Virus genome (UHGV): UHGV-0382128
Strand: one strand, 5' to 3'
Origin: a virus
DNA length: 64,000 bases
Position numbers and translations under genes: made by a program. This document shows positions 13,847 through 54,040 of the stretch, one piece after another. Every line of letters begins with the position of its first letter. Position 1 is the first letter of the stretch. The notes under the pieces were generated by a model. That model saw only the letters and a program-made list of their open reading frames with translations. It did not search any database and was not told the origin of the DNA.

Positions 13847-13856
13847 GGAGAATTTT

Positions 13857-18041: not shown

Positions 18042-18079
18042 GACAGACTGCCTGCGGGCAGTTGTGTGTCCGTAGGTAA

Positions 18080-18118
18080 CCCCTCCCTGTAATGGGGAGG
18101 GGTATCCATTTTATTTAA
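18080..18118 (+). terminator. terminator-like hairpin between fibre genes
   Basis: CCCCTCCC-TGTAAT-GGGGAGGGG followed by TATCCATTTTATTT. Confidence 0.45.
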
Positions 18119-18135
18119 AAGTAGGAGTCTTTACG

Positions 18136-25041: not shown

Positions 25042-25956
25042 ATGGAAGAACTTACTAGACCGACGGTATCCGATAAGCTCTACAGTAATCCGAGAACGTT
25101 AAACGTGATTACAACATCCAAATGTAATCTGGACTGTAGCTTCTGCGGCGGAGCCTATTACATGCATAGAGAGGATACAACCGCAGAAGTACAAAAGGAA
25201 AGTATTATCGAGGCGCTGGAAAATAACCCGACTATCACAAATATCCAATGGTCAGGGGGCGAACCATTACTTGCCACGCGTAAAATTGATACCCTTATAG
25301 AAGAGATAAGGGAGAAGTATCCTCGTTGCGAACATTACCTGTATACCAATGGTTTAAAAATGCGTAAATCGCATCTACCGTTGTTAAAGGGTTTTGATAG
25401 TATCTTTTTTAGCATGGATGGATTCAAAGAATCAGAGCGTCCGTTCATGCGGATTATCGAAGAAAAACAATACGAGGTTTTGGAGACAATTTACGAATTG
25501 AAAAATATTCGTACTTGGGCGGTTTTGACGCGCGAGCGTATTGGGGATAAACGTTGGTACGAAGATATAATTGCGTTACATAACCACATTTACCATTATG
25601 GTTTTTGTGAGATGTCGCTGGTTTTGGACAAAAACATGCCAAAACCGTTATCTCCCGATCACGTTATGAACTTTATTTACGGGTATTTTAGAATTCAGGA
25701 GAATATAGAAAGACTGAATTCGTCCAATCGAAGCGAATGTGCGTTTACGCTAAATGCGTTATTTGATGAACCCTGTAACACATGTAGTCGTTGTTTTCGC
25801 ATTGAGTCTGACGGTGCCCAGAACCAAGTAAAGAACGTTGAAATCGTAACGCAACACGGCTGTAGTGACTTGGCCAGAAAGGTTGGATTAGATGCTTACG
25901 ACTATATACGTCGTGTGGTAGGGGCTAAGAATAGAGTCTCAGAAAAACTACGATAA
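25042..25956 (+). CDS. radical SAM enzyme (Cx3Cx2C; extra C-terminal Cys cluster), paralog 1
   Basis: TSKCNLDCSFCGG motif; GGEPLL glycine-rich motif; C-terminal Cys cluster (C..C.TC.RC...C) suggesting an auxiliary Fe-S domain. Confidence 0.75.
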   Translation: MEELTRPTVSDKLYSNPRTLNVITTSKCNLDCSFCGGAYYMHREDTTAEVQKESIIEALENNPTITNIQWSGGEPLLATRKIDTLIEEIREKYPRCEHYLYTNGLKMRKSHLPLLKGFDSIFFSMDGFKESERPFMRIIEEKQYEVLETIYELKNIRTWAVLTRERIGDKRWYEDIIALHNHIYHYGFCEMSLVLDKNMPKPLSPDHVMNFIYGYFRIQENIERLNSSNRSECAFTLNALFDEPCNTCSRCFRIESDGAQNQVKNVEIVTQHGCSDLARKVGLDAYDYIRRVVGAKNRVSEKLR

Positions 25957-26416: not shown

Positions 26417-27083
26417 ATGATAAGTCTTAAAAACATACGCGACAGATTAGTGACGGCGGAGGGATATATCACCACCGCTAATGCAAACAACTATATTGCA
26501 AACCAAGGAACGGTTTCCTCAACCAACAATCTCGCAGGATTACCTTTAAGTCATTATAATTGTAATGGCGGATGTAGTTGGTCGTGCAGCGGTAGCTGTA
26601 GTAAGGGGGCGGGGGGGGGTAAGTAAGCCCTCTAGCGGTGGTTCTACGCCAACCCCTTCAAGACCAACCTACGACAACAAAGCCGTTGTTTATGTTGAGT
26701 CTAAGCTACACGCTAAAGATACTGTTCGTATCAATTTCTCTACTGGGGCTGTCTTTATTCAATGCGTAACGTCAACCGGTAGAGAGAAACCGATAAGGGT
26801 CTTTAAATCGTTACTGTCTGGAAAGTCCTACGCCTACCCTCAAGTTGCAATGGGTAATGGTATCACTGTTAATTTTACAGACGCGGCTAGTTTTAAGATA
26901 GACTCTATCGGTAATGCATCTTCTGCTTCTATCTCATTAGAAGTATTAAGTAATTCCGGCGGAAGCATGGCGATTACGCAGCAACCGAGTAAATCAAACG
27001 GCTTTACTGCAGAATTTGAAGTTACCGGCAGGCAATGGCGTGGCGGGTTCTATACCTTGAACGTCAGATTGACCGTAAAATAA
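26417..27083 (+). CDS. Cys-rich precursor-like module 3 apparently fused to a C-terminal domain; reading frame interrupted at a G-tract (26605-26619)
   Basis: ORF 26417..26626 (leader plus short core ...HYNCNGGCSWSCSGSCSKGAGGGK*) and ORF 26565..27083 join into one frame if the G9 run is 8 or 11 long, continuing into a Pro/Ser/Thr linker (SKPSSGGSTPTPSRPT) and a domain of about 150 aa. Confidence 0.45.
26605..26619 (+). repeat. homopolymeric tract GGGGGCGGGGGGGGG inside coding sequence
   Basis: G5-C-G9 counted directly; coincides with the frame change between ORFs 26417..26626 and 26565..27083. Confidence 0.9.
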
Positions 27084-27989: not shown

Positions 27990-28928
27990 ATGGACTCACC
28001 TGCAATGACAACCGACGTAGAGCCAAGGTTATCGAATCGTTTATACAATAAACCCACCGTATTGTCCGTAGTTGCTACATCCAAATGTAATCTGGACTGT
28101 AGCTTCTGCGGCGGAGCCTATTACATGCATCGTGAAGATTCTCCGCGAGAGTTTCAACGTGAACGAATTTTGAAAGCGTTGGCGTCTAACCCAACCATTA
28201 CTGAAATTCAGTGGACTGGCGGTGAACCGCTACTGGCAACTCGAAAGATTGAGGCGTTTGTCGACGAATTAAAAACGATCCGTCCTGAACTCAAACACCA
28301 GATGTTCACGAACGGTTTAAAAATGCGTAAATCGCATCTACCGTTGTTAAAACAATTCGATGGTATATATGTTAGCATCGATGGGTTTAATCTTTCTGAA
28401 CGGCCTTTTAAGCGCTTTATTGATGATAATTGTCATGAAGCGTTAGAAGTAATTTACAGCTTGAATAATGTTAACACCTGGGCTGTTGTTACGAGGGAGA
28501 ATTTATCCAATAAAAGATGGCATGAAGATATCATTCAATTACATACTGCTATCTATCATTACGGTTTTCGTTCCATGTCCTTATTACTAGATAAAAACAT
28601 GCCAAAACCGTTATCTCCCGATCACGTTATGAACTTTATTTACGGGTATTTTAGAATTCAGGAGAATATAGAAAGATTAAACGTTCTAAATTCTAGAGAC
28701 TGCGGTTTTATTGTAAACAGATTCTTCGATCATGCTTGTAATGTCTGTAGCGAAAGTCTCAGGATAGACGCGGACGGGGAAGAAAACCAACTTAAAAATG
28801 TACCAATAACTACAAAAGCAGGGTGTAACCAACTAGCCTCCTCAATAGGTGTAGAAGCTTACGAGTACATTCGTCGTGTAGTGATGGCAGAGCGTAATAG
28901 AGGGGCGGAAAATGAGTCAAGAAAATAG
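27990..28928 (+). CDS. radical SAM enzyme, paralog 2
   Basis: TSKCNLDCSFCGG; three blocks of 100 percent nucleotide identity with rSAM paralog 1 (54, 38 and 84 nt). Confidence 0.75.
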   Translation: MDSPAMTTDVEPRLSNRLYNKPTVLSVVATSKCNLDCSFCGGAYYMHREDSPREFQRERILKALASNPTITEIQWTGGEPLLATRKIEAFVDELKTIRPELKHQMFTNGLKMRKSHLPLLKQFDGIYVSIDGFNLSERPFKRFIDDNCHEALEVIYSLNNVNTWAVVTRENLSNKRWHEDIIQLHTAIYHYGFRSMSLLLDKNMPKPLSPDHVMNFIYGYFRIQENIERLNVLNSRDCGFIVNRFFDHACNVCSESLRIDADGEENQLKNVPITTKAGCNQLASSIGVEAYEYIRRVVMAERNRGAENESRK

Positions 28929-30234
28929 TTATCCTAAACAACTGACTTATCAAATTGTTACAAATTTATCGTGTAACTTGGACTGTGAGTATTGTTACGA
29001 ACGTAAGTATCCCCGTAATAACAAAGCGGCGGATATTGTTGATTTTCTACACGCTTGTTTTGAACGAGATAAAGATCTGACAAACATCGAGGTCGTTATC
29101 GATATCATCGGTGGTGAGCCGTTTATGCAGCCTAAACTATTAAAGGCGGCATTTGAAACCGCAGAAGAGTTATGCGAAAAACATAATCGGCCGTTTATGT
29201 TTAGCATCTCTACTAACGGAACGTTGTTAGATAGACCTTTGAATAGAGAAATTATTGAACGTTGGAAAGACAGGCTTTCTATCGGCGTGTCTATTGATGG
29301 ATTGCCCGAATCGCACGATAAGTACCGGATTTTTACAACAACTCGTGAAGGATCTTACGAGGCCGCTGTGCGGGGCTATAACTACTTAAAAGAAGTCGGT
29401 ATTGCAGAACTTGGTGTAAAAGCGACCTTTACGTTGGAAACGTTACCGTTCTATGCTGCTGGAATGAAATCATTAATTGATATTACTGGCGGCGGAACTA
29501 TTTCTGGCAACGTAACCTTCGAAGACATTATGCCACGGAGCATGGCTACTTCAATCGCATTGCAGATGATGGACGTGGTAGATTATTGGGTTGAGAAGGG
29601 CTTACACACCAACCCACGTAACACTTTGTCGCACATCATTCCAGACGGGTTAGATTTTGATACTATCTGGGAACCAAACTGGCGTGATCAGTTATTGTAT
29701 AACGATACTGTACGTTTGAATCCAGAACGTTTACGCCCGTTCTGCGGTACGTTAACACACATGACATGCTTAGGATTTGATCGTAAGATCTTCGGTTGTA
29801 ACCGTTTCATGTCAACCGTAACATCACGTTCTGCCGTATTTGAATTAGTTGGGCGGGAATTTGTTAGCTTAGATGACGGGAAATTGCTGGAAGAGATTCA
29901 GACGCAATACACCAACTATCCTGAAACCTGTTTAGGTTGTCCAATGAAGCACGCTTGTGGTAGTTGTGCGGCTGCATCTTACGAGAATGGAGAAGGGACG
30001 CTAGAAGATCGCAAAGCTTATCACGCTGAACGCCGTCAATGTGGCTGGACAACTGCAAAGTTGATGGTTGCGGAATATTGGAAACAGAAAATGGGCACGA
30101 CGTCAGTGAAAGATTTTCATGACAATAGCATGTGTTATTGCCCTCGTTGCGTACGTGAACGTACCCAGAAAGAAAAACAATTGAGAGAAACCAAAGATGA
30201 AGCCAATTCTGATCCACAATATTACGAAGCGTAA
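28912..30234 (+). CDS. radical SAM enzyme with SPASM-like C-terminal Cys-rich domain (anSME-like architecture)
   Basis: N-terminal SCNLDCEYC (Cx3Cx2C); C-terminal CLGCPMKHACGSCAAASYENGEG and further Cys; start overlaps the stop of rSAM 2 by 17 nt. Confidence 0.75.
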   Translation: MSQENSYPKQLTYQIVTNLSCNLDCEYCYERKYPRNNKAADIVDFLHACFERDKDLTNIEVVIDIIGGEPFMQPKLLKAAFETAEELCEKHNRPFMFSISTNGTLLDRPLNREIIERWKDRLSIGVSIDGLPESHDKYRIFTTTREGSYEAAVRGYNYLKEVGIAELGVKATFTLETLPFYAAGMKSLIDITGGGTISGNVTFEDIMPRSMATSIALQMMDVVDYWVEKGLHTNPRNTLSHIIPDGLDFDTIWEPNWRDQLLYNDTVRLNPERLRPFCGTLTHMTCLGFDRKIFGCNRFMSTVTSRSAVFELVGREFVSLDDGKLLEEIQTQYTNYPETCLGCPMKHACGSCAAASYENGEGTLEDRKAYHAERRQCGWTTAKLMVAEYWKQKMGTTSVKDFHDNSMCYCPRCVRERTQKEKQLRETKDEANSDPQYYEA

Positions 30235-32072: not shown

Positions 32073-32082
32073 CCCCCCCCCC
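32073..32082 (+). repeat. C10 homopolymer (G10 on the coding minus strand), intergenic
   Basis: Counted directly; lies between the stop of 32090..32620 and the RBS of 31491..32021. Confidence 0.9.
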
Positions 32083-42391: not shown

Positions 42392-42401
42392 GGGGGGGGG
42401 G
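42392..42401 (+). repeat. G10 homopolymer (C10 on the coding minus strand), intergenic
   Basis: Counted directly; between the stop of 42416..43258 and the RBS of 41850..42365. Confidence 0.9.
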
Positions 42402-44686: not shown

Positions 44687-46807
44687 TTAAATAACTACCC
44701 AGCTTTTACCATCGGAACCAATCTGCATTAGCGTAATACTTTCATTGGTATCAATGGGTTTGGCAAGACCTTCTGTCCCACTCTTTGGAGTGATGAGAAC
44801 GTTTGAATTTTCCGGTTTAACGGTGATCTTACCAGCCTTATTTGCCACGATCTGAATATTTCTGCCCACGCTATATTCTAGATCAGGAATAGTAAGTTGG
44901 CCGCCACGGTTGGTGGGTGGGAAATACACATAAGACGACACATCTTCCTCAGATAACACTATGCTACCAGAATCACGATTGACCGAGATCTCAAACTTAG
45001 AAATATCGATATCATAGGCAGTAACTTTCGTAATATCCGTCAGAACCAATTCGTTCAAATCGGTCTTAGCTGGACTGTTCGCCAGATCAAATGGAGTACC
45101 ATTCGTACCGTCCAGCACAGGTGTGACTGTGGTTTTATTGGCACCAGGATAAATGATTTCAAGCGTATGCCAGTTATTATCGTACGCACCAAAAGTTCCT
45201 AATTTCGCATTCTGCTTTTTATGATGCATCAGATTAAGATTCTTAGCGTCGGTCTGTAAGAAAAAAGACATTAGGTACGGGTTTGTATCAGCCACACTAG
45301 CGTCAGCAAGTGTAGTACCAGAAGGTAGGTCGGACGCGGAGATACGCCAATAAAGCCCTAAGCCGAAACGATTTTCTGCTAAATCACCTTTTAGTCTAAA
45401 AGTAACGGTCAGTCGTCCACCGTAACGTATCATGTCCGCAGCAGATGTCATTGACTTAGTTACATTCCAAGGTTTCATCGTTACAGCCTTTCTTAATTCG
45501 ACGAAATGCCCGTTTCCATCCTCAGAATCTTGCACGGTTACGTTACAATCAACGATATTGTTCCAACCCTGCCCTTTCAGGGAACCATCTCCACGACGTC
45601 CGTTATAACCCACAGACTCTACTAATGGGGTATAGCTTCTTACCACATTCATATTGTCTTTGAGCTCTTTAGTGTCGTTCTTCGTCAGGAGCATTGCACC
45701 ATTCGCTGTTCTTGATAATATCTCAGCAGCTATTCTCTCTGAGATAATACCGCGTCGTGCCCAAGAACTGAAATGGCTATTCCTTGTTTCAGACGTCCAG
45801 TTTTTATTACTACGGGTGGCAGCACCGTAGTAGGCAGCACCAGCGATATCAGGATCGTCAGTGGGATCATTAGTCGGTACACGTTGGCCATTATCGTCGT
45901 ACATGAATGGAACAAAAAAGATATTTTTTTGTTCATTGTTACGATAATTACCGTATATGGTTTCATATTGAACAGGATATTTTTCCTTCCAATAGTAGGT
46001 AGTGTCCCCGCAGATCCATGGTACTTCGGCGGTGTCGTACTCGGGCATCTGAGAGAGATGGTCAGAGAGATCAGTTCGGAAACGCTCTACCATTGCCATA
46101 AATAACGCTGGTTGTTGTGCGTAACCTACTTTAGTCAGATCATACTCCCCCTGCATCCACACTACAGCCAAGAGTTTATTTTTAGGATTAACGTCCAGAG
46201 CTTTTTTGGTCCGGCTAACTAAATCTTTATAAAGAGGTTTTTCCACCCCCCATACCGATGACGTCGCAGAGGCTCCTGTGGCTTCATCGAAGGTACCTTC
46301 TGCACCACCCGTGAAAGCAGAACCGCCGCGTGCGCAGGGTACTAGTAAGATACCAGCGTTGCTAGGAATATACGGGAGAAGACGCTTCGCGATGTGTAGA
46401 CCTTGACCCACACATCCGTATTCACCTTTGTCCAAATTGGCTTTGGGGTGCGAGAATACGGACATATCTTGCACGTCGTGCAGACAGTGATCCGCTGGAA
46501 TGACGTCGTTATACTTACAATCAGCCCCGTTAGGCGTTACCTTCGCACGGCGCGCCATCTGTTTAATTCGCGGATCGGGAGCGTCCAACGTCGCCGGTAG
46601 AGGCAACCCTTCACCATAACTCATCGCATTAGATTGCCCGGCTATAGGAATCACGAAGTAATACTCCGGCTCCGTCGTGCCCTGAAGTTTTGCAATATCA
46701 ATTTTATATTCTTTTTCTTCCTTAGAAAGAAGAACTAACGCACCTTTGAGATCGCCAGAGAAATTGTCGAGTTCATGGATACGTTTCTTTCCAATTGGCT
46801 GACTCAT
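44687..46807 (-). CDS. tailspike/fibre protein with SGNH (GDSL-type) esterase-like domain
   Basis: GQSNA motif at about residue 56; N-terminal KKRIHELDNFSGDLKGALVLLSKEEKEYK shared with the 1479-aa fibre (KKIRLHDLHPYTGDIGEGVLLFSKDEKDYK), suggesting a common attachment domain. Confidence 0.6.
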   Translation of the reverse strand: MSQPIGKKRIHELDNFSGDLKGALVLLSKEEKEYKIDIAKLQGTTEPEYYFVIPIAGQSNAMSYGEGLPLPATLDAPDPRIKQMARRAKVTPNGADCKYNDVIPADHCLHDVQDMSVFSHPKANLDKGEYGCVGQGLHIAKRLLPYIPSNAGILLVPCARGGSAFTGGAEGTFDEATGASATSSVWGVEKPLYKDLVSRTKKALDVNPKNKLLAVVWMQGEYDLTKVGYAQQPALFMAMVERFRTDLSDHLSQMPEYDTAEVPWICGDTTYYWKEKYPVQYETIYGNYRNNEQKNIFFVPFMYDDNGQRVPTNDPTDDPDIAGAAYYGAATRSNKNWTSETRNSHFSSWARRGIISERIAAEILSRTANGAMLLTKNDTKELKDNMNVVRSYTPLVESVGYNGRRGDGSLKGQGWNNIVDCNVTVQDSEDGNGHFVELRKAVTMKPWNVTKSMTSAADMIRYGGRLTVTFRLKGDLAENRFGLGLYWRISASDLPSGTTLADASVADTNPYLMSFFLQTDAKNLNLMHHKKQNAKLGTFGAYDNNWHTLEIIYPGANKTTVTPVLDGTNGTPFDLANSPAKTDLNELVLTDITKVTAYDIDISKFEISVNRDSGSIVLSEEDVSSYVYFPPTNRGGQLTIPDLEYSVGRNIQIVANKAGKITVKPENSNVLITPKSGTEGLAKPIDTNESITLMQIGSDGKSWVVI

Positions 46808-46810
46808 CTA

Positions 46811-47323
46811 CTACTCTCCAAAAGTTAAGATTTTATTGTCAAACGTCAACACGACAGAATCATCACCGATGCCACACGGTGTTTCATCTGGGCCGAAAAC
46901 CACCACGGAGAACTGTCCTTTATAAGCGATGGAATTCGGAGCGATGCTAAGCGTTACCGCGTCTTTACCTACCGTGAACGACTGGTCGGTTAAATCGTCG
47001 GTTTGTAAGTTAGCACCACAAACGGCATTGACGGATTCGATAAGATCGTGTGCATTAAACCCTTCACCTCTTACTTTTACCAGAATAGGTTGTTGGTTTA
47101 ACCACCGCTCTGCGGTTAAACGGTTGTAGTAGATTTGCAACGTTCTGTTTCCAGGACGTTTAATCTTTACAATGGCAGTGGAGTCACGATCCATTTCATC
47201 ACTGGTTTTTACGTCACTGACTTCAACCTCGTTCTCTTGCAAGTCAAGTTGGAGGTCATGGTTAACCAGTGAAATAACCATGTTAAGTGAAGTTAGTGAT
47301 AAATCTGGTGTGAATTTTTCCAC
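46811..47323 (-). CDS. small beta-rich protein, paralog family member (GTG start)
   Basis: Pattern LSLTSLNMVISLVNHD ... IYYNRL; paralog 53418..53978 sits in the equivalent position upstream of the other fibre. Confidence 0.5.
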   Translation of the reverse strand: MEKFTPDLSLTSLNMVISLVNHDLQLDLQENEVEVSDVKTSDEMDRDSTAIVKIKRPGNRTLQIYYNRLTAERWLNQQPILVKVRGEGFNAHDLIESVNAVCGANLQTDDLTDQSFTVGKDAVTLSIAPNSIAYKGQFSVVVFGPDETPCGIGDDSVVLTFDNKILTFGE

Positions 47324-47377: not shown

Positions 47378-47387
47378 CCCCCCCCCC
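47378..47387 (+). repeat. C10 homopolymer (G10 on the coding minus strand), intergenic
   Basis: Counted directly; follows a 12-bp AT-rich stem-loop (47389-47420) after the stop of 47422..47865. Confidence 0.9.
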
Positions 47388-47421: not shown

Positions 47422-47865
47422 TTAGCTAATTCTCAAATCACGCAGTGCGCCTGTCGATTTCATCACGTTTTGGAACGCGCCACTGATGTTATTAGTCCAG
47501 TAATAATGCTGTCCGTTAATAACCTGCTGATAGGCCAGCGCGCAGGTGTTACCACCTAAATTTACGGTAATGTTAGAGGCTCTGCCTCCTTGTAAGTAAA
47601 CCGCTAAAGTAGGCTTTGCGTTGGCAACTATCGTCGTTAACTGTAACTCAATACCTACTAAAGTTCCCACCCCGCAGTTACCCGCGTTTTGAATGGTTCC
47701 CTGATTTTTCTGGTTTAACGGCCAGCTTGGTCCTACCGCGCCCCATTTCTTACCTAAAGAATCGCTATATGCAGCGGTTGCAATTTTACAGCCCATAGAT
47801 CGTCCCACCATTTGACTCATCATAAAAGGTCTACCCAATCCTAATTTACTACCAGCAGCGCTCAT
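47422..47865 (-). CDS. receptor-binding-like protein, paralog of 48184..48729; true start probably upstream at 47930 but frame broken by a G10 tract
   Basis: Track ORF starts at an internal ATG; an upstream ATG (47930) with AGGAG RBS is followed by 10 G then TAA. With 8 or 11 G the frame reads MGGGVTGSWVGSSAKNETGEQW-MSAAGSKL..., matching the paralog N-terminus MGVASGWVGSSAKAVTGQEW-MSVAGNKL. Confidence 0.55.
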   Translation of the reverse strand: MSAAGSKLGLGRPFMMSQMVGRSMGCKIATAAYSDSLGKKWGAVGPSWPLNQKNQGTIQNAGNCGVGTLVGIELQLTTIVANAKPTLAVYLQGGRASNITVNLGGNTCALAYQQVINGQHYYWTNNISGAFQNVMKSTGALRDLRIS

Positions 47866-47918
47866 CCATTGTTCGCCCGTTTCGTTCTTGGCCGAAGAAC
47901 CGACCCACGAACCGGTTA

Positions 47919-47928
47919 CCCCCCCCCC
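47919..47928 (+). repeat. C10 homopolymer (G10 on the coding strand) directly after the start codon of the receptor-binding-like paralog
   Basis: Counted directly; length determines whether the N-terminal 22 codons are in frame. Confidence 0.9.
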
Positions 47929-47942
47929 ATCGCGATCTCCTG

Positions 47943-48173
47943 TTAAGATTTTCTACATGTTATTGAATCGAAAGCACCACGCCCAACCCAACGCCAATTA
48001 TAATGATGATCAGCTTTATAAAGTGTGTATCTGCCCTGCTTTTTTACGTCGAAAATATTGATCGTAGTCTCTTCATTACCCAGCTTAGCTGTGCCGTAAC
48101 ATACAGGTTCGGGTAGTTGTTGACATCCACTTACTGTAAGCAATGCGAAACCCAGTAAAACTTTTCTTAACAT
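47943..48173 (-). CDS. small lipoprotein (76 aa)
   Basis: MLRKVLLGFALLTVSGC lipobox-type signal; located between the two receptor-binding-like paralogs. Confidence 0.5.
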   Translation of the reverse strand: MLRKVLLGFALLTVSGCQQLPEPVCYGTAKLGNEETTINIFDVKKQGRYTLYKADHHYNWRWVGRGAFDSITCRKS

Positions 48174-48183
48174 CTTTCTGTCC

Positions 48184-48729
48184 TTAGACTACACTTATTG
48201 AAATTGTTGCGCCGTTCTGATTAAATAACCAGTTGGTTGCCGTCTTAGCCTCATAGCGCCGGACGCCGTTACTGTAAGAGTACGGTAGAAAAGTAATCTT
48301 CGTTCCGTTAAACGAAAGCGTAATATTCTGATTTGGTCCATTGGTTAGGGCCATGTAGATAATACCAGTATTTTGTACTTGGCTAAGATGTGTGACGCTA
48401 CAACCCAAGATCGAACCTGACACCGAACCGGCCGCATTTTGTGTTTGCACACGATTCGATACTGTAGAACCAGCACCCGTTGTTGTAGAGTTGTTCGAAT
48501 ACCCCCCATACGTATTTGTAATAGGAACCCACTGCGTGTTCGTAGCCTGCACCAAAACAACATAGGTTGATCGGCCTACAACGAGTTTAAGATCCTCTAC
48601 GCTACGCCCGACCATCTGCGACATGTTAAATGGCGTGCTCAGTTTAAGCTTATTACCTGCCACACTCATCCACTCCTGACCGGTTACTGCCTTTGCTGAG
48701 CTTCCAACCCAGCCGGATGCTACCCCCAT
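48184..48729 (-). CDS. receptor-binding-like protein (181 aa), intact paralog
   Basis: N-terminal MGVASGWVGSSAKAVTGQEWMSVAGNKLKLSTPFNMSQMVGRS conserved with 47422..47865; GGAGG RBS; immediately downstream of the 1479-aa fibre gene. Confidence 0.55.
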   Translation of the reverse strand: MGVASGWVGSSAKAVTGQEWMSVAGNKLKLSTPFNMSQMVGRSVEDLKLVVGRSTYVVLVQATNTQWVPITNTYGGYSNNSTTTGAGSTVSNRVQTQNAAGSVSGSILGCSVTHLSQVQNTGIIYMALTNGPNQNITLSFNGTKITFLPYSYSNGVRRYEAKTATNWLFNQNGATISISVV

Positions 48730-48743
48730 AAATCCTCCAAACT

Positions 48744-48771
48744 AAGATAGGGGGATTACTCCCCCTATCTT
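48744..48771 (-). promoter_or_regulatory. intercistronic stem-loop (perfect 12-bp stem) between fibre gene and downstream receptor-binding-like gene
   Basis: AAGATAGGGGGA-GTAA-TCCCCCTATCTT overlapping the fibre stop codon and just upstream of the RBS of 48184..48729. Confidence 0.45.
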
Positions 48772-51700
48772 TAATTCCCCTTGAGTTCTTTAAGCTCTCG
48801 GCGAAGAGACTTCATACCCTCTACTAACAGCGCAATAACGCCATTGTAATTTAGACGTAAACGTTTTTCGCCTGAAATGGCATCGTCGTCCTCGGACACA
48901 AGTTCAGGTAACGCTTCTAAAGCGTCCTGAGCAATTAGACCTACAGAAGTCTGCCAGCCGTCGTCAGGATGCTGAATTTCGTACAAATACCCTGTTAGTA
49001 ACTCTAACCGATCCAAAGCTTTATCCAGCTTCACCAGATTACGTTTGTTACGACGGTCAGAACGAATCTGTACGTCGTTAAACGAACCGTTACCGTTGCC
49101 AGTAACGTTATGTCCAAAGTTTACTTGACCGTTGGAATTATTAAAAGACAACGGACGTAATCCGTTCCAGGAACCCGCTGCGGCTTGTCCGGCATCGGTT
49201 ACTAAGAAATAGGTATTGGCACCATCGTTACGTAAAATAAAACCGTAGGTACCGTAAGCGATTCGAAAATCAGGGTATTTAGTGGCCAATTTACCGTTAA
49301 CGGTTAAATCGCCGCCTATAGTACCGCCCCCCGAAGGTAGTGCACCCACTTCCGCAGCAGTTGGCTTGTTTCTCGTATTGTAAGCACGACGCCAGCCTGG
49401 TGAGTATCCATCGCCGTTAAATACGTAGATAAACTCCGCATTAGTGAGTGCTCCGCCGACGCTCGTCGTTGTGGCGGTCGTTATACGGATCGTGTAGTTG
49501 TTTGTGCTGTTGCCGTTACTAATGACTTCTATAACGGCCCCAGCTAACGGAATGACACCACAACCCGTCTCGCTGTGAGGTATGGACGCACTGGCGGCAT
49601 AAGCCCACGCACAGCGAGCAACCCACGATCTTGTGGTAAATGCGCCGTTATTTTTCAATAACGTCACTAGCTGTGCTGTAGTTATTGCACCGCCATCAGC
49701 GCCAGTTTCTAACCAACCACTAGGTGATGCCGGACAACCTATTTCGGCTGGCCCTAACGATATATTTCTAGTGCCATCAAACGCAATACCATTGATGGTT
49801 CTTGCGGTTTGCAACTTTGTTGCCGTGGCTGCGTTTCCGGTGGTCGACTGATTCCCTGTTTGGTTTACTCCAGGTAAACTGATGTCTTTAGTACCATCAA
49901 AAGCCACGCCACCTATATTTCGCGCAGTCTGGAGCTTAGTCGCTGTCGCCGCATTCCCCGTAGTCGATTGGTTACCGGTTTGGTTTACGCCAGGAAGATT
50001 AACGTCTTTTGTCCCATCGAACACCACACCGCCGATCTTACGTGCGGTTTGTAACTTAGTAGCGGTCGCTGCATTACCTGTCGTATTCTGGTTGCCTTGC
50101 TGGTTAACGCCCGGTAAATTGATGTCACCTGTACCGTCAAAGCTAACGCCTCCGATCCTGCGAGCGGTTTTCAGTTTCGTCGCGGTAGCGGCGTTGCCGG
50201 TAGTATCCTGATTACCTGTGGCATTTACACCAGGAATGCTATCACGGGCAGTATAAACTTGTGCCCAATCTGACCACGGCGCATCAGCAGTATCACGTCG
50301 ACTACGAATATAAACGGGTGCGTGCGCACCGCTCGTCCCCGACCATCCGATTAACAGTTCTCCTTCGCCTAGCGCAGCAGAACCGCCCAAATGCAGTAAG
50401 TTACCATAAGCGGTTGGATAACCGTTATTGTAAACTTCGTACATCTGAATACCGGGTGTACCTTTGTTTGATCCAGTCAGTGCAGTAACACGTCCACGTC
50501 CTACCAACGTGTTGATATTGATGTCTCTAGACCCATCAAATTTCACACCGTTGATGTTTCGAGCCGTTTGTAATTTGGTTGCGGTTCCCGCGTTCCCAGA
50601 GGTGTTTTGATTACCCTGTTGGTTTACACCAGGGAGGCTAATGTCTCCGCTACCGTCGAAACTTACACCGCCGATTAAACGGGCTGTTTTCAGTTTCGTT
50701 GCCGTAGCAGCATTGCCTGTTAACTCACCTGATAACCCTTTTGCAAAGGTCTGTTTTTCTGCCCACGTATGCGCTGCATTCAATACGGGCATCTGGCGGC
50801 TAGTAATAGTACGTTTACCCTTTTCACCAGCGACGCGAACAGCAAAGAAGCGATAGTTAGCAGTAGACACTGTACCACGCCAGACCAACATACTCCGGCC
50901 AGTACCGGTGTCCTCCGACGCCCCTACAAGAATAGTGACCAAGTTACCGTCGATAACACCCCAATCCATTCCCGCAGGAATGTTTTTCATGGTATTCAAT
51001 GGTGTACTTATCATCTGGCCAGGAACGAAGTCGAAGGTTTGCCAGTCTAACGGATCGACCTTAGCAGCAACCCCACCGATCCCTAAAGTCAACGGGAGTG
51101 AATAGGATGTGAAAATTTCTCGCCATTCGCTCCAGGCGTTTCCTGTACGAATTCGTTGGAACTTGCGACCTTTCGAAGTTGCGCCTGTACCGTATGTGGT
51201 ATAATTTTGTTCAACACCTGAACCGTCTAAGCGTAAGGTAACTTCGCAAACACCTAGCAAGGTTGCGCCAGCAGAGTCTGTTAACGGACTGTCTGTAGCC
51301 TCACCGGTAACACTAAAGCGACCCGGTTTAGTTAAGTCGTTAAAGCTACCCTTATAGTAGGCACCGTCTACCTGATACCCAACCTGAATCCAATCTTCCC
51401 ACTGCGGATTAGACGAATCCCAAGTCGCAGTCAAACCACGGACATACATCGTACCACGTCGTGTGGTGTATCGTTGCAACCGTCCGTAAAGACCACCTTC
51501 CATGACTTCTAATACGCCTTGCGCATTACCGCCCTCTTCAGGATAATGTCTGTCGAACACCGCTAACGAACTGGACGAGTTACGCCAGTTACCCATGTGC
51601 TCAGCGCCGCCTAAGGAGTTCAGATCGATCGATGTAGATAACGGACGTACACCGGTAGTTACCATTCTCCACGGTGACCACGGGCCATTAGTTCCGTTCC

Positions 51701-53210
51701 ACGCACCTGACAACATACGGTTGTACACGTTACCATTACGACAGGTAAAACGTTGCGCACCGCTATAGTTACCCGCTTTATACACTTCTAGATAACCTAC
51801 CGCACCGTCTTCCGGGAAGTGTTTTGCTATTGATGCGTTTGTTGATGTCGACTTGGACCATGTTCCTGTGTAATTGGCATCTGGAGCAAATGTGTTAATA
51901 TCAGCATCTGCGGGCATTTCACCACGGAAACGCAGATAGGTATCAGGAGATAGACCAATATTGCGAGCAAAGGTTTCTTTATTGGGGATATCAGCACCGT
52001 TAGAGTTTTTCTGTAACGCAGCGTTCGCTTTATCTACAGTGGCTTTTAATCCCAAGAAATTGATGATATCCGCAGTTGTCCCTTTTGCTAACAAGGTTCT
52101 GGCGGTTTCTGTAAAGTCAGTTAACCCGACTTTATTAGTGCCAGTGAAATAAGGGAGCTTGTTTGCTGCGGTTGTGACTGCGGCAATAGCAGTAAGTAGT
52201 GGACTGATAGGTTGCTTCTGTGCAAGTTTCTCAGTAATCGTTGTTGCGAAGTTAGGGTCATTACCTAACGCCGTAGCTAATTCCGCTAAGGTATCTAACG
52301 TCTCAGGTGAAGAACCAACCAATTCCGCGATAGCAGCACGCACCCAGGCCGTTGTGGAGATGCTCGTGTCATTCGAGTCCTTTGGGGGCGTTGGTGATGT
52401 CGGGTTACCCGTAAAATTCGGCGAATGTTTATCGGCTTTTAACTGTAATTCGTCGTTCAGCTGTTTAACCGTGGACGGTGTGGCAGCCTCCGTCACGGAT
52501 TCGCTAGTCAGGGTATTGTTAAGTTTAACGATACCTTTACCGGTCGTACTAGCGTCAACTAAACCCTGTGCAGCGATTTTCTCCGCACGCAGAGCGGCTG
52601 ACTCCGAGCGTGTAGCTGCGCCTTCTGAGCTTTCTTTATCTTTCGTAACCTGCGCAGCAACCTTCTCCACCGCGCCCTTACTGGCCTCAATTGAAGCCGC
52701 AGTATTTGCGATACTGGTAGCGGTCTGTTGAACCTGTCCGGCCCGTTGCGTAACCGTTTCTGCTTTCTTAGTTACATCAGCCGCTACAGCTGTCACAGAT
52801 TGTTCGCTTGCGGCGACAGCTTGAGCCTTCTCATTTACTGATTGTGAAACAGTATCTACGGCAGTTTTTGCTGCTAAAACTTCAGCGTGTTTTTTGTTAA
52901 CCTCCGCAGTTTTAGTGGCGACGGTTCCCGCTTGCTCATTAACTGTGGAAGCTAAAGTGGTGGTCTGTTGCTTCGCTGTTTCTGCTAAATCTTTAGCTTT
53001 CGTAGCTTCTGTTGCGGACTGTTGTGATTTGGCCGCAGCCGTTTGTGCATCAGCAACCGCACTTCTGACGGTGTCAATGTCCGCAACGATCTCGCGGACG
53101 GGTAACTTATAATCTTTTTCGTCTTTCGAAAAAAGTAAAACGCCTTCACCGATATCCCCGGTGTACGGATGTAAGTCGTGTAAACGTATTTTCTTTACCG
53201 CTTTAGCCAT
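48771..53210 (-). CDS. long tail fibre protein (1479 aa) with tandem about 39-aa repeats and C-terminal intramolecular chaperone (peptidase S74-like) domain
   Basis: C-terminus SDRRNKRNLVKLDKALDRLELLTGYLYEIQHPDDGWQTSVGLIAQDALEALPELVS fits the S74 auto-cleaving chaperone signature; six repeats of GNQ.TTGNAATATKLQTAR.IGGV.FDGT.DI.LPGVNQ; fibre-repeat-like TTGKGIVKLNNTLTSESVTEAATPSTV. Confidence 0.8.
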   Translation of the reverse strand: MAKAVKKIRLHDLHPYTGDIGEGVLLFSKDEKDYKLPVREIVADIDTVRSAVADAQTAAAKSQQSATEATKAKDLAETAKQQTTTLASTVNEQAGTVATKTAEVNKKHAEVLAAKTAVDTVSQSVNEKAQAVAASEQSVTAVAADVTKKAETVTQRAGQVQQTATSIANTAASIEASKGAVEKVAAQVTKDKESSEGAATRSESAALRAEKIAAQGLVDASTTGKGIVKLNNTLTSESVTEAATPSTVKQLNDELQLKADKHSPNFTGNPTSPTPPKDSNDTSISTTAWVRAAIAELVGSSPETLDTLAELATALGNDPNFATTITEKLAQKQPISPLLTAIAAVTTAANKLPYFTGTNKVGLTDFTETARTLLAKGTTADIINFLGLKATVDKANAALQKNSNGADIPNKETFARNIGLSPDTYLRFRGEMPADADINTFAPDANYTGTWSKSTSTNASIAKHFPEDGAVGYLEVYKAGNYSGAQRFTCRNGNVYNRMLSGAWNGTNGPWSPWRMVTTGVRPLSTSIDLNSLGGAEHMGNWRNSSSSLAVFDRHYPEEGGNAQGVLEVMEGGLYGRLQRYTTRRGTMYVRGLTATWDSSNPQWEDWIQVGYQVDGAYYKGSFNDLTKPGRFSVTGEATDSPLTDSAGATLLGVCEVTLRLDGSGVEQNYTTYGTGATSKGRKFQRIRTGNAWSEWREIFTSYSLPLTLGIGGVAAKVDPLDWQTFDFVPGQMISTPLNTMKNIPAGMDWGVIDGNLVTILVGASEDTGTGRSMLVWRGTVSTANYRFFAVRVAGEKGKRTITSRQMPVLNAAHTWAEKQTFAKGLSGELTGNAATATKLKTARLIGGVSFDGSGDISLPGVNQQGNQNTSGNAGTATKLQTARNINGVKFDGSRDININTLVGRGRVTALTGSNKGTPGIQMYEVYNNGYPTAYGNLLHLGGSAALGEGELLIGWSGTSGAHAPVYIRSRRDTADAPWSDWAQVYTARDSIPGVNATGNQDTTGNAATATKLKTARRIGGVSFDGTGDINLPGVNQQGNQNTTGNAATATKLQTARKIGGVVFDGTKDVNLPGVNQTGNQSTTGNAATATKLQTARNIGGVAFDGTKDISLPGVNQTGNQSTTGNAATATKLQTARTINGIAFDGTRNISLGPAEIGCPASPSGWLETGADGGAITTAQLVTLLKNNGAFTTRSWVARCAWAYAASASIPHSETGCGVIPLAGAVIEVISNGNSTNNYTIRITTATTTSVGGALTNAEFIYVFNGDGYSPGWRRAYNTRNKPTAAEVGALPSGGGTIGGDLTVNGKLATKYPDFRIAYGTYGFILRNDGANTYFLVTDAGQAAAGSWNGLRPLSFNNSNGQVNFGHNVTGNGNGSFNDVQIRSDRRNKRNLVKLDKALDRLELLTGYLYEIQHPDDGWQTSVGLIAQDALEALPELVSEDDDAISGEKRLRLNYNGVIALLVEGMKSLRRELKELKGN
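49770..50720 (-). repeat. tandem coding repeats (about 117 nt units) inside the 1479-aa fibre gene
   Basis: Repeating nucleotide units readable on the plus strand (e.g. ...gccgtggctgcgtttccggtggtcgactgattccctgtttggtttac...) corresponding to the protein repeats; two runs separated by a non-repeat segment at about 50230-50500. Confidence 0.7.
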
Positions 53211-53417
53211 GATATTTAATTCTCTATCGGGAGCTAAAAGATCTGGGGAGGTACTTTACCCCCCGCCCAATATTTTTATAAGCGGATTATTATACTGGTT
53301 TTAATCCATCATCTTCTAACGTGAAAGTGATGCCCAACTCCGCGTTCTCATGATCTGGGTTTACTAAGTCTTGATAAACGTTTGCTTTGGCCTCCATTAC
53401 CAGAAAAACCGTCAAGT

Positions 53418-53978
53418 TCATGTAGCCGGGTTTTCTTCAGCGGAGTCTCCATCTGGAACCTCAAATGTAAGAACAGCATCGTCACCAATACAGAAGATTG
53501 CATCTTCTTCGTTTGCTAATGCCCGTTCAGTTGTATCAAATAACGTCACCATAAACGCATTCATCCACGCAGGAGAATCGTCAGCAACGTTGACAGCAAT
53601 AGGATCGTTACCTAAAGTGATATCTGAAGCACGTAAATCCTCGGGTTGTAAGTTCGTTCCGCAGAATTCATTTACAACACCTAAAATGTCGCGTACGTTG
53701 TCTTCGGTACCATCTAACGAAATCAAAATAGGTTCGGACGCTAACACTTTGTCCGCATCCAAACGGTCGTAATAAACAACTACAGAAGCACCATCAGGTT
53801 TCCTGATTTTTGTAATCTCTGTCAGTGTGTTACGACGCGAAGTGGTCGGGGATGGGTTTGCCGTAGTGTTGCTAATACGGATTTCGCTTAGAGACAACCG
53901 TGAACCGTTATCGTGGTTGATTAAAGCGACCACTAGTTCGGCTGAGGACAAACTTAAATCAGGTACGTAAGCAGTCAC
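53418..53978 (-). CDS. small beta-rich protein, paralog family member (GTG start at 53978 with GGGAGG RBS)
   Basis: MTAYVPDLSLSSAELVVALINHDNG parallels MEKFTPDLSLTSLNMVISLVNHDLQ of 46811..47323. Confidence 0.5.
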   Translation of the reverse strand: MTAYVPDLSLSSAELVVALINHDNGSRLSLSEIRISNTTANPSPTTSRRNTLTEITKIRKPDGASVVVYYDRLDADKVLASEPILISLDGTEDNVRDILGVVNEFCGTNLQPEDLRASDITLGNDPIAVNVADDSPAWMNAFMVTLFDTTERALANEEDAIFCIGDDAVLTFEVPDGDSAEENPAT

Positions 53979-53992
53979 TAAAACCTCCCAGA

Positions 53993-54040
53993 TCAAAAAA
54001 AATAAAAACACCTACCGCCCCATAGAATCGGGCGGTAGGC
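53993..54040 (-). terminator. rho-independent terminator
   Basis: CCTACCGCCC-loop-GGGCGGTAGG 10-bp stem followed by T-rich run on the minus strand. Confidence 0.65.

What the first reader, a model, noticed from the sequence alone, without database searches (positions are those of the whole stretch)
47865..47930. G10 tract directly after the start codon of a receptor-binding-like paralog switches off its N-terminus
On the minus strand AGGAG-6 nt-ATG is followed by G10 then TAA. With 8 or 11 G the frame reads MGGGVTGSWVGSSAKNETGEQWMSAAGSKL..., which matches the N-terminus of the intact paralog 48184..48729 (MGVASGWVGSSAKAVTGQEWMSVAGNKL...). As sequenced, only a truncated product from the internal ATG (47865) is possible. 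Poly-G phase variation of structural genes is documented in Campylobacter phages; here it would affect one of two adjacent receptor-binding-like paralogs and could be a host-range switch.
Basis: partly seen in the sequence, partly recalled or inferred. Interest (0 to 1): 0.65.

Follow-up and report, generated by a model that had tools for sequence, protein, structure and literature searches.

The report
Poly-G on/off switch in phage adhesin
A run of about ten G's right after the start codon of a second receptor-binding (gp38-like) tail-fibre adhesin gene of a ~225 kb gut enterobacterial jumbo phage differs in length (8, 9, 10 or 11) between otherwise identical natural genomes. It therefore turns this adhesin on or off, in the way poly-G tracts do in Campylobacter phages.

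Summary
On the minus strand, AGGAG, 6 nt and ATG lead into a G10 run (47919-47928) followed by TAA, so the window encodes only MGGG-stop. With 8 or 11 G the frame opens into a 168/169-aa protein with a full Gp38_N domain.

The gene is one of two gp38-like tail-fibre adhesins that flank a Cor superinfection-exclusion lipoprotein gene, downstream of a 1479-aa tail fibre.

In 14 independent metagenome assemblies of the same ~225 kb phage the tract is 8 (1), 9 (5), 10 (6) or 11 (2). All four lengths occur on one identical coding haplotype. The rest of the gene carries six synonymous changes and one nonsynonymous change, and no other lesion. This is therefore a real hypermutable tract that toggles an intact gene, not an assembly error or a decayed pseudogene.

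Relatives that have only this adhesin start it with ATGGGGGTA (G5). The tract arose where an adhesin-A + cor cassette was inserted.

The window holds five G/C runs of 9-10 (0.05-0.09 expected) and none of 7-8. All five vary in length, and two are stems of conserved intergenic hairpins.

Whether switching is adaptive (host range) is inferred, not shown: in-frame lengths are not enriched.

This is a new member of a known kind (Campylobacter Fletchervirus poly-G receptor-binding proteins).

The parts
47919..47928 (-). Poly-G tract (G10 on the coding strand, C10 on the + strand). Its first G is the third base of the start codon and its last G is the first base of codon GTA (Val) of the adhesin frame. 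Lengths 8 and 11 are ON; 9 and 10 are OFF.
   Evidence: Lengths of 8, 9, 10 and 11 in 14 other assemblies.
47937..47941 (-). Shine-Dalgarno sequence AGGAG, 6 nt upstream of the ATG.
   Evidence: The sequence GGAGATCGCGAT is invariant in all 15 genomes.
47916..47930 (-). Mini-ORF as sequenced: ATG GGG GGG GGG TAA (MGGG-stop). This is the OFF state of the window.
47422..47919 (-). Body of adhesin B, a gp38-like tail-fibre adhesin. It is open from codon GTA at the end of the tract to the stop at 47422-47424 and intact in every genome examined.
   Evidence: phrog_1121 E = 6.5e-44. Pfam Gp38_N 68 bits for the repaired protein. Same 168 codons in all 15 genomes; 7 variable sites, 6 of them synonymous third positions.
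47863..47865 (-). Internal ATG, the first in-frame start after the tract. It would give a 147-aa product that lacks the first 22 residues, which is half of the Gp38_N docking domain.
   Evidence: Pfam matches only profile positions 21-40, 26 bits.
47943..48173 (-). Cor-type superinfection-exclusion lipoprotein, 76 aa, with lipobox LTVSGC.
   Evidence: phrog_1119 E = 1.3e-25. 61.5% identical to Cor of Stx2 phage 86 and POCJ13, 54% to SSU5, 44% to N15.
48184..48729 (-). Adhesin A, the intact gp38-like paralog of 181 aa, starting ATGGGGGTA (G5).
   Evidence: phrog_1121 E = 6.9e-53. Gp38_N 72.7 bits. 69% identical to the adhesin that sits next to cor in Stx2 phage 86 and POCJ13.
48771..53210 (-). 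Long tail fibre (1479 aa) with Gp34_trimer, Phage_fiber_2 repeats and a C-terminal Peptidase_S74 chaperone. It is the presumed carrier of adhesins A and B.
   Evidence: Its distal tip is about 90% identical to the fibre tip of relatives whose only adhesin is B.
47378..47387 (-). Second poly-G tract (G10), intergenic, about 55 nt upstream of the DUF7941 gene. It forms the 5' arm of a hairpin closed by CCCCC.
   Evidence: Lengths 9, 10 and 11 across assemblies. Conserved in distant relatives. Fold z = -3.3.
46811..47323 (-). DUF7941 virion structural protein (170 aa), the next gene downstream.
44687..46807 (-). Second fibre/spike (706 aa) with a SASA esterase domain plus DUF6645. It contains a G6 run (46246-46251) that is G7, and frameshifted, in one assembly.
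26611..26619 (+). Poly-G tract (G9) inside a coding region. A length of 11 fuses a 68-aa Cys-rich ORF to a downstream domain, giving 222 aa.
32073..32082 (-). Poly-G tract (G10), intergenic between two DUF7941 genes. It is the stem of a G10...CCCCC hairpin.
   Evidence: (lengths 9-12).
42392..42401 (+). G10 on the + strand, so C10 on the coding strand. It is intergenic, present in only some strains, with lengths of 8 or 10.

Best explanation
**The locus.** The G8-11 run at 47919-47928 is a hypermutable homopolymer (a contingency locus) placed directly after the start codon of adhesin B. B is the second of two gp38-like tail-fibre adhesins of an uncultivated ~225 kb enterobacterial jumbo phage.

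**Shown from sequence.**
- Gain or loss of single G's changes the run length.
- Lengths 8 and 11 translate a full 168/169-aa adhesin with a complete N-terminal Gp38_N domain.
- Length 10 gives MGGG-stop and length 9 gives a 26-aa nonsense peptide.
- In the OFF lengths only an N-terminally truncated, probably non-docking product is conceivable.

**Inferred history.** B is the ancestral adhesin of this phage group. In relatives it directly follows the fibre gene and starts ATGGGGGTA. In the window's lineage an 'adhesin A + cor' cassette, of the kind carried by Stx phages and SSU5, was inserted between the fibre and B. The new 5' junction of B carries the tract.

**Inferred mechanism.** Length changes arise by slipped-strand mispairing during phage DNA replication.

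**Inferred function.** A and B share the docking domain, and the fibre tip is conserved. ON phages would therefore carry B in addition to, or in competition with, A on the same fibre. OFF phages would carry A only. Each burst would then contain a minority of virions with a different receptor specificity.
For: **Length varies between natural genomes.** Tract lengths of 8, 9, 10 and 11 occur with invariant flanks in 14 independent assemblies plus the window. ON and OFF products are both called by the gene finders, and both are on record on many ~225 kb contigs.

**The tract changes much faster than the surrounding sequence.** Eleven genomes share an identical B coding haplotype yet carry all four lengths.

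**B is otherwise intact.** The CDS has the same 168 codons in all 15 genomes, with 7 variable sites of which 6 are synonymous. My own binomial estimate of this under neutrality is about 0.001.

**The N-terminus matters.** The repaired protein matches Gp38_N fully, whereas the truncated ORF keeps only half of the domain. Residues 1-13 are nearly invariant in the family. The AF2 model shows a disordered docking segment (1-43) followed by a confident beta-sandwich head.

**History of the locus.** B-only relatives have fibre followed directly by B, starting ATGGGGGTA. Their fibre tip is about 90% identical to that of the window. Adhesin A and cor are adjacent in Stx2 phage 86, POCJ13 and SSU5.

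**Enrichment.** Five G/C runs of 9-10 against 0.05-0.09 expected.

**Precedent.** Fletchervirus poly-G tracts of 7-11 G in receptor-binding proteins, as summarised in 10.1101/2025.10.21.683753.
Against: - No read-level data, so heterogeneity within a single population is not shown.
- The consensus state is OFF in 12 of 15 genomes read.
- The length distribution (8:1, 9:5, 10:7, 11:2) is indistinguishable from that of the non-coding tract 4 (9:5, 10:8, 11:2). Nothing therefore indicates selection on the frame.
- The tract sits at a recombination junction and could be a by-product of that event.
- Other long G runs in this phage are mostly intergenic, and a G6 run slipped to G7 in the tailspike gene of one assembly. 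This suggests a general mutational tendency rather than a purpose-built switch.
- Binding of A and B to the same fibre, and their receptors, are untested.
- Some of the synonymous polymorphism may have been imported by recombination from tract-less alleles.
Confidence: 0.7

Rival explanations
1. Neutral by-product. After the A + cor cassette was acquired, adhesin B became redundant. G runs in this phage expand to about 10 because of a replication slippage bias. The tract merely drifts between frames in a dispensable gene that is on its way to becoming a pseudogene. Expression still flips on and off, but without adaptive value.
For: - ON lengths are not enriched relative to the non-coding tracts.
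- 12 of 15 genomes are OFF.
- All five tracts centre on 9-11 G whether or not they are coding.
- There are no runs of 7-8.
- A G6 run slipped to G7 in the tailspike gene of L030.
- The tract lies at a recombination junction.
Against: - No second inactivating lesion occurs in 15 genomes.
- The ratio is 6 synonymous to 1 nonsynonymous change.
- The tract is uninterrupted in all genomes.
- The Shine-Dalgarno sequence and ATG are perfectly conserved.
- ON alleles are on record on at least 21 contigs.
Confidence: 0.22
2. Assembly or sequencing artefact. The true tract is always in frame, and the homopolymer length is mis-called.
For: - Homopolymers are error-prone.
- A T8-10 run near 53995 also differs between assemblies.
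Against: - Four lengths spanning 3 nt occur across assemblies from at least four projects and two assemblers.
- The rest of the 20 kb has very few single-base indels, and none of those in the window fall in coding sequence.
- The same kind of variation is seen at four other G tracts.
Confidence: 0.03
3. Expression-level bypass. RNA polymerase stuttering or ribosomal frameshifting on the G run yields some full-length B from every DNA length. The tract would then set a dose rather than an on/off state.
For: - None from these data.
- Transcriptional slippage on long homopolymers is an established phenomenon (my own background knowledge).
- Relatives of this phage appear to be jumbo phages, which often bring their own RNA polymerases.
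Against: - The stop codon comes immediately after the tract in the G10 frame.
- No stimulatory RNA structure is predicted (z = 0.07).
- Slippage of this kind is best documented for A/T runs.
Confidence: 0.1

Closest known systems
Poly-G phase variation of receptor-binding proteins in Campylobacter Fletchervirus phages (Sorensen et al. 2021, Cell Rep 35:109214; known to me through citations in PMC10877375, PMC12823448 and 10.1101/2025.10.21.683753)
   Same: - A 7-11 G tract lies inside a phage receptor-binding gene.
- Length changes flip the reading frame.
- The phage genome carries several such tracts.
- The proposed result is a mixed progeny with different receptor use.
   Different: - The host is Enterobacteriaceae, not Campylobacter.
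- The phage is a ~225 kb jumbo phage.
- The protein is a small gp38-type tip adhesin, not a Fletchervirus receptor-binding protein.
- The tract is fused to the start codon.
- The switched gene is one of two paralogs that flank a cor gene.
- No experimental evidence exists here.
Phage contingency loci in T2/T4 and other coliphages (Gomez, Barrick and Waters, bioRxiv 10.1101/2025.10.21.683753)
   Same: Homopolymer slippage in a coliphage-type genome gives reversible frameshifts and population heterogeneity.
   Different: - Those loci are mostly poly-A runs of 6-9 in genes such as agt and rIIA.
- That study found homopolymers under-represented in tail-fibre genes (0.77x).
- Here the run is a long poly-G in an adhesin gene.
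gp38 tail-fibre adhesins of T2/T6/S16-type phages (Pfam PF21721 Gp38_N)
   Same: - The N-terminal docking domain is shared.
- The gene lies downstream of the distal fibre gene.
- The fibre has a C-terminal chaperone that is removed.
   Different: - The C-terminal head has no glycine-rich motifs.
- Its predicted beta-sandwich has no significant match among solved structures.
Alternative tail-fibre tips switched by DNA inversion (Mu G segment, P1 C segment) and diversity-generating retroelements (DGRs) such as that of BPP-1
   Same: The phage population hedges between receptor specificities by a heritable, reversible DNA change at the fibre tip.
   Different: The mechanism here is homopolymer slippage. 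No invertase, inverted repeats or reverse transcriptase was seen at this locus.

Membership tests
Homopolymer (SSR) contingency locus / phase-variable gene | A long mononucleotide tract lies inside the reading frame or at its start. | tested here: met
   G10 begins in the start codon.
Homopolymer (SSR) contingency locus / phase-variable gene | Tract length is polymorphic among very closely related genomes, while flanks and gene body are conserved. | tested here: met
   Lengths of 8, 9, 10 and 11 in 15 genomes. All four occur on one identical coding haplotype.
Homopolymer (SSR) contingency locus / phase-variable gene | Length changes switch between a full-length product and a truncated or absent one. 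| tested here: met
   168/169 aa against MGGG-stop or a 26-aa peptide.
Homopolymer (SSR) contingency locus / phase-variable gene | Heterogeneity within one population, and a measured high and reversible switching rate. | not testable with these tools
   No reads or cultures were available. Only between-sample consensus lengths could be compared.
Homopolymer (SSR) contingency locus / phase-variable gene | The ON and OFF states differ in phenotype. | not testable with these tools
   This needs adsorption and host-range assays.
gp38-like tail-fibre adhesin (PF21721 / phrog_1121) | N-terminal Gp38_N docking domain. | tested here: met
   Repaired B scores 68 bits and A scores 72.7 bits against a cut-off of 25. 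phrog_1121 E = 6.5e-44 for B and 6.9e-53 for A.
gp38-like tail-fibre adhesin (PF21721 / phrog_1121) | Encoded directly downstream of the distal fibre gene. | tested here: met
   A lies 41 nt after the fibre gene. B directly follows the fibre gene in relatives L032-L035 and CMS-2020a. In the window, A and cor lie between the fibre and B.
gp38-like tail-fibre adhesin (PF21721 / phrog_1121) | T2/S16-type C-terminal head with glycine-rich motifs. | tested here: not met
   There are no glycine-rich motifs in A or B. phmmer against PDB chains finds nothing. Foldseek of the AF2 model finds no hit at E <= 0.001. The E. coli relative p98232 does carry a T2-type gp38 next to a B-type gene.
Cor superinfection-exclusion lipoprotein | Sequence family, lipoprotein signal peptide, and position next to the adhesin or host-specificity gene. 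| tested here: met
   phrog_1119 E = 1.3e-25. Lipobox LTVSGC. Adjacent to an A-type adhesin in Stx2 phage 86, POCJ13 and SSU5.
Cor superinfection-exclusion lipoprotein | Blocks the outer-membrane receptor (FhuA for phi80/N15/T1). | not testable with these tools
   This is a functional assay. FhuA as the target here is only an analogy.

The most novel reading that the evidence does not exclude
This gut enterobacterial jumbo phage carries a genome-wide set of maintained G9-12 tracts. Together they would stochastically toggle an alternative receptor adhesin, a Cys-rich protein fusion encoded next to three radical-SAM genes, and hairpins upstream of fibre-adaptor (DUF7941) genes. This would be a multi-locus set of phase-variable loci, of the kind known from Campylobacter and its phages, operating in a phage of mismatch-repair-proficient Enterobacteriaceae. 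It would be made possible by slippage-prone replication by the phage's own polymerase. A shared G(n)-T-R-R design would place a stop codon directly after each tract.
Probability: 0.3. Interest if true: 0.75.

Novelty: new member of a known kind. Interest (0 to 1): 0.55.

Why it matters
**What the case adds.** Poly-G phase variation of receptor-binding proteins has been demonstrated experimentally only in Campylobacter phages. In coliphages homopolymers were reported to be depleted from tail-fibre genes.

Here a common, uncultivated ~225 kb jumbo phage shows natural-population evidence for the same trick. The phage is seen in many gut metagenomes and in Shigella, Salmonella and E. coli isolate assemblies. 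The gene affected is a gp38-type adhesin that sits beside a second adhesin and a Cor exclusion gene.

**What it makes testable.** The case gives a concrete system for bet-hedging in host range among enterobacterial phages. Locked-ON and locked-OFF tracts could be built and adsorption measured on receptor mutants.

**Practical point.** Annotation pipelines will mis-call such genes as truncated (124-aa and 147-aa calls against the 168/169-aa product).

Tried and rejected
**Searches that found nothing**
- Exact-flank pattern scans of IMG/VR viral contigs and of JGI metagenome contigs: no match.
- Megablast against INPHARED phages: only a 135-bp hit to phage-plasmid CMS-2020a and weak jumbo-phage hits. 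The phage is not in that collection.
- phmmer of adhesin B against PDB chains and Foldseek of the AF2 model against PDB: no significant match, so no fold assignment for the head domain.
- Pfam on the 222-aa tract-1 fusion protein: no family.

**Calls that failed**
I could not see whether any genome combines A + cor with a tract-less B.
- A Markov-chain simulation for run enrichment timed out. It was replaced by analytic first-order and log-linear estimates.
- The Sorensen 2021 paper is not held in the library and is cited only through papers that describe it.

**Ideas considered and dropped**
- An alternative upstream start codon that bypasses the tract: there is no ATG, GTG or TTG in the adhesin frame between the preceding stop codon and the tract.
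- An RNA structure at tract 5: z = 0.07.
- A quantitative ON:OFF census from the protein cluster listing: only 40 of 328 members were read, and OFF products are called inconsistently.

Full report
**1. The observation**

On the minus strand the sequence reads ...AACAGGAGATCGCG ATG GGG GGG GGG TAA CCG GTT CG....
- AGGAG lies at 47941-47937, six nucleotides upstream of ATG 47930-47928.
- The G of the ATG opens a run of ten G, which is C10 on the + strand at 47919-47928.
- TAA follows directly, so the window encodes MGGG-stop.
- A run of 11 reads MGGGVTGSWVGSSAKNETGEQWMSAAGSKL... and a run of 8 reads MGGVTGSW...
- A run of 9 gives a 26-aa out-of-frame peptide.
- The only in-frame start after the tract is ATG 47865, heading the 147-aa ORF 47422..47865.
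- The restored N-terminus is 67% identical over 43 residues to the neighbouring ORF 48184..48729 (E = 1e-16), which starts ATGGGGGTA.

**2. What the genes are**

Both paralogs match PHROG 1121 'tail fiber adhesin' (E = 6.5e-44 and 6.9e-53) and Pfam Gp38_N, PF21721 (68 and 72.7 bits against a cut-off of 25). The ORF from the internal ATG retains only profile positions 21-40 of the 40-position domain (26 bits).

In an alignment of family members, residues 1-13 (MGV.SGWVGSSAK) are nearly invariant.

An AlphaFold2 model of a 94%-identical allele has an unstructured segment at 1-43 (pLDDT below 50). That is expected for a peptide that folds only on the fibre. Residues 44-167 form a confident beta-sandwich (pLDDT about 90). 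The model has no significant match among solved structures.

The neighbouring genes are:
- **Between the paralogs:** a 76-aa lipoprotein (lipobox LTVSGC) that is a Cor superinfection-exclusion protein (phrog_1119, E = 1.3e-25).
- **Upstream:** a 1479-aa tail fibre with Gp34_trimer, Phage_fiber_2 repeats and a Peptidase_S74 C-terminal chaperone.
- **Downstream:** a DUF7941 virion protein and a 706-aa SASA-esterase fibre/spike.

**3. Which phage**

The window belongs to a ~225 kb phage that was assembled as a single contig in dozens of ENA metagenomes. Its adhesin-B protein cluster includes members from isolate assemblies labelled Shigella flexneri, Salmonella enterica and E. coli, some on contigs of about 225 kb.

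More distant relatives (~85% nucleotide identity) are deposited as circular 'plasmids' of 221,873 bp in E. coli 98232 and 222,441 bp in Enterobacter ludwigii. Only weak nucleotide similarity to named jumbo phages (Salmonella JN03 and SPAsTU, Erwinia Huxley and Machina) was found.

**4. The tract varies in nature**

In 14 independent assemblies the flanks GGAGATCGCGAT and TAACCGG are invariant. The run is 8 (1 genome), 9 (5), 10 (6) or 11 (2); the window has 10.

Gene callers predict 168 aa (run of 8) and 169 aa (run of 11) products with Gp38_N. For runs of 9 and 10 they predict a 124-aa remnant. In the protein collection the 168-aa form is on record on 12 + 3 contigs and the 169-aa form on 6. 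Truncated forms are on 7 + 3 + 3 contigs. This is a partial listing of 40 of 328 cluster members, so it is not a census.

Eleven genomes share an identical adhesin-B coding haplotype yet carry all four lengths. The tract therefore changes much faster than point substitutions accumulate.

Apart from the tract, the gene has the same 168 codons in all 15 genomes. It has seven variable sites, six of them synonymous third positions and one nonsynonymous. Under neutrality, with roughly three quarters of sites nonsynonymous, one or fewer nonsynonymous changes out of seven has a probability of about 0.001 (my calculation). The caveat is that some of these changes may have arrived by recombination.

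This is not the pattern of an assembly error or of a decayed pseudogene.

**5. Origin of the tract**

Relatives whose adhesin is 84-94% identical (L032-L035) have the fibre gene followed four nucleotides later by B. There B starts ATGGGGGTAGCATCT (G5), with no adhesin A and no cor. The same holds for phage-plasmid CMS-2020a.

Their fibre's distal tip, the last ~100 residues before the S74 cleavage site, is about 90% identical to that of the window.

Adhesin A and Cor occur as an adjacent pair in Stx2 phage 86, phi296-type phages and Shigella phage POCJ13 (69% and 61.5% identity), and in SSU5 (47% and 54%).

The simplest history is that B is the ancestral adhesin and an A + cor cassette was inserted between the fibre and B. 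B's new 5' junction then consists of the Shine-Dalgarno sequence, the ATG, the G run and codons VTGS in place of VASG. Homology to the tract-less alleles resumes at TGGGTCGGTTCTTCGGCC.

**6. Other G tracts**

The window has five G/C runs of 9-10 and none of 7-8. Expected runs of 9 or more are 0.05-0.09 (P about 2e-9). All five vary in length between assemblies.

| Tract | Window coordinates | Lengths seen | Context |
|---|---|---|---|
| 1 | 26611-26619 | 9-11 | Coding. G11 fuses a 68-aa Cys-rich ORF (..CNGGCSWSCSGSCSKG) to a downstream domain, giving 222 aa, among three radical-SAM genes. |
| 2 | 42392-42401 | 8 or 10, or absent | Intergenic. |
| 3 | 32073-32082 | 9-12 | Intergenic; 5' arm of a hairpin closed by CCCCC; upstream of a DUF7941 gene. 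|
| 4 | 47378-47387 | 9-11 | Intergenic; 5' arm of a hairpin closed by CCCCC; upstream of a DUF7941 gene. |
| 5 | 47919-47928 | 8-11 | Start of adhesin B. |

The hairpins at tracts 3 and 4 have fold z-scores of -2.4 and -3.3.

Tracts 3 and 4 are the only long G runs in the whole 222 kb E. coli relative, so they are old. Tracts 1, 2 and 5 are specific to the window's lineage.

Tract 5 shows no RNA-structure signal (z = 0.07).

In one assembly a G6 run in the 706-aa spike gene has become G7 and splits the gene.

Every tract is followed by T-R-R, usually a stop codon. I cannot explain this.

**7. Interpretation**

*Shown:* a length-polymorphic G run toggles the reading frame of an otherwise conserved adhesin gene.

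*Inferred:*
- The mechanism is replication slippage.
- A and B dock on the same fibre tip. The grounds are their 67%-identical docking domains and a tip shared with B-only relatives.
- ON virions gain a second receptor specificity.
- Cor masks the receptor of the adhesin it travels with. This rests on analogy with N15, phi80 and T1, where that receptor is FhuA (my own background knowledge).

*Against an adaptive switch:* the consensus is OFF in 12 of 15 genomes. The length distribution matches that of the non-coding tracts, so the frame shows no sign of selection at the level of consensus sequences. The neutral by-product reading therefore keeps substantial weight.

**8. Comparison with known systems**

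The closest precedent is the set of 7-11 G tracts in the receptor-binding genes of Campylobacter Fletchervirus phages (Sorensen 2021, as described and cited).

A 2025 preprint generalises phage contingency loci to T-even and other coliphages. It mainly concerns poly-A runs and reports homopolymers depleted from tail-fibre genes.

My literature searches found no report of a phase-variable gp38-type adhesin or of poly-G tracts in an enterobacterial jumbo phage.

**Verdict.** This is a new member of a known kind. Adaptive significance is untested.

Noticed in passing
window 26420-27083 (+); L019:7504-8172: The poly-G tract at 26611-26619 lies inside a coding region. With G11 a 68-aa Cys-rich ORF (..HYNCNGGCSWSCSGSCSKGAGGG) is fused through a Pro/Ser linker to a ~150-aa beta-rich domain, giving 222 aa. 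With G9 or G10 the Cys-rich peptide ends at TAA just after the tract. The gene sits among three radical-SAM genes (25042-25956, 27990-28928, 28912-30234). No Pfam family matches it.
   Followed up: partly
window 32073-32082 and 47378-47387; L036:8703-8712; NZ_CP173450.1 32552-32560 and 44653-44662: Two intergenic G9-12 tracts form the 5' arm of hairpins closed by a C5 run, each upstream of a DUF7941 gene. They are conserved, with the same architecture, in relatives only ~85% identical. They are the only long G runs in the whole 222 kb E. coli relative. Their function (terminator, 5'-UTR element or module boundary) is unknown.
   Followed up: partly
all five tracts in the window; L032:4815; NZ_CP173450.1: Every long G run is followed by T then two purines (TAA, TAG, TGG-TAA, TGA, TAA, and so on), usually a stop codon. 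GGTAACC follows both tract 3 and tract 5. I have no explanation for this.
   Followed up: no
window 46246-46251 (C6 on +; G6 in the 706-aa SASA spike gene); L030:4037-4098: In one assembly this G6 run is G7. That splits the 706-aa fibre/spike gene into 193 + 533 aa. It suggests that G runs as short as 6 already slip in this phage.
   Followed up: partly
whole window; NZ_CP173450.1 (E. coli 98232) and NZ_CP134650.1 (Enterobacter ludwigii): Relatives of this ~225 kb phage are deposited as circular, non-mobilizable 'plasmids' in complete bacterial genomes. Members of its adhesin-B protein cluster occur in Shigella, Salmonella and E. coli isolate assemblies, some on ~225 kb contigs. This hints at a carrier, pseudolysogenic or phage-plasmid lifestyle.
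   Followed up: partly
window 48771-53210: The tail fibre is 1479 aa in most genomes and 1439 aa in some. The difference is exactly one 40-aa unit of the GNxxTATKLQTAR... repeat.
   Followed up: partly
window 53995-54002 (A8 on +; T run upstream of the DUF7941 gene 53418-54011): This intergenic T run is 8, 9 or 10 in different assemblies. Long A/T homopolymers are therefore also length-polymorphic in this phage.
   Followed up: no
window 53259-53268 region (minus strand GGGCGGGGGG upstream of the fibre gene); L032:4815-4823: Upstream of the fibre gene the window has an interrupted G run (G3-C-G6). A relative has an uninterrupted G9 followed by a C6 hairpin arm at the same place. This may be a decayed or nascent tract.
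   Followed up: no
L036:9339-10055 (E. coli p98232 relative): This relative carries a T2-type gp38 with glycine-rich motifs directly after its fibre gene, followed by a B-type adhesin (G5 start). Pairs of different adhesins behind one fibre gene therefore recur in this phage group.
   Followed up: no
window 9524-23322 (+): Three consecutive very large ORFs (1440, 1394 and 1728 aa) have no annotation in the RefSeq relative. I did not examine them.
   Followed up: no
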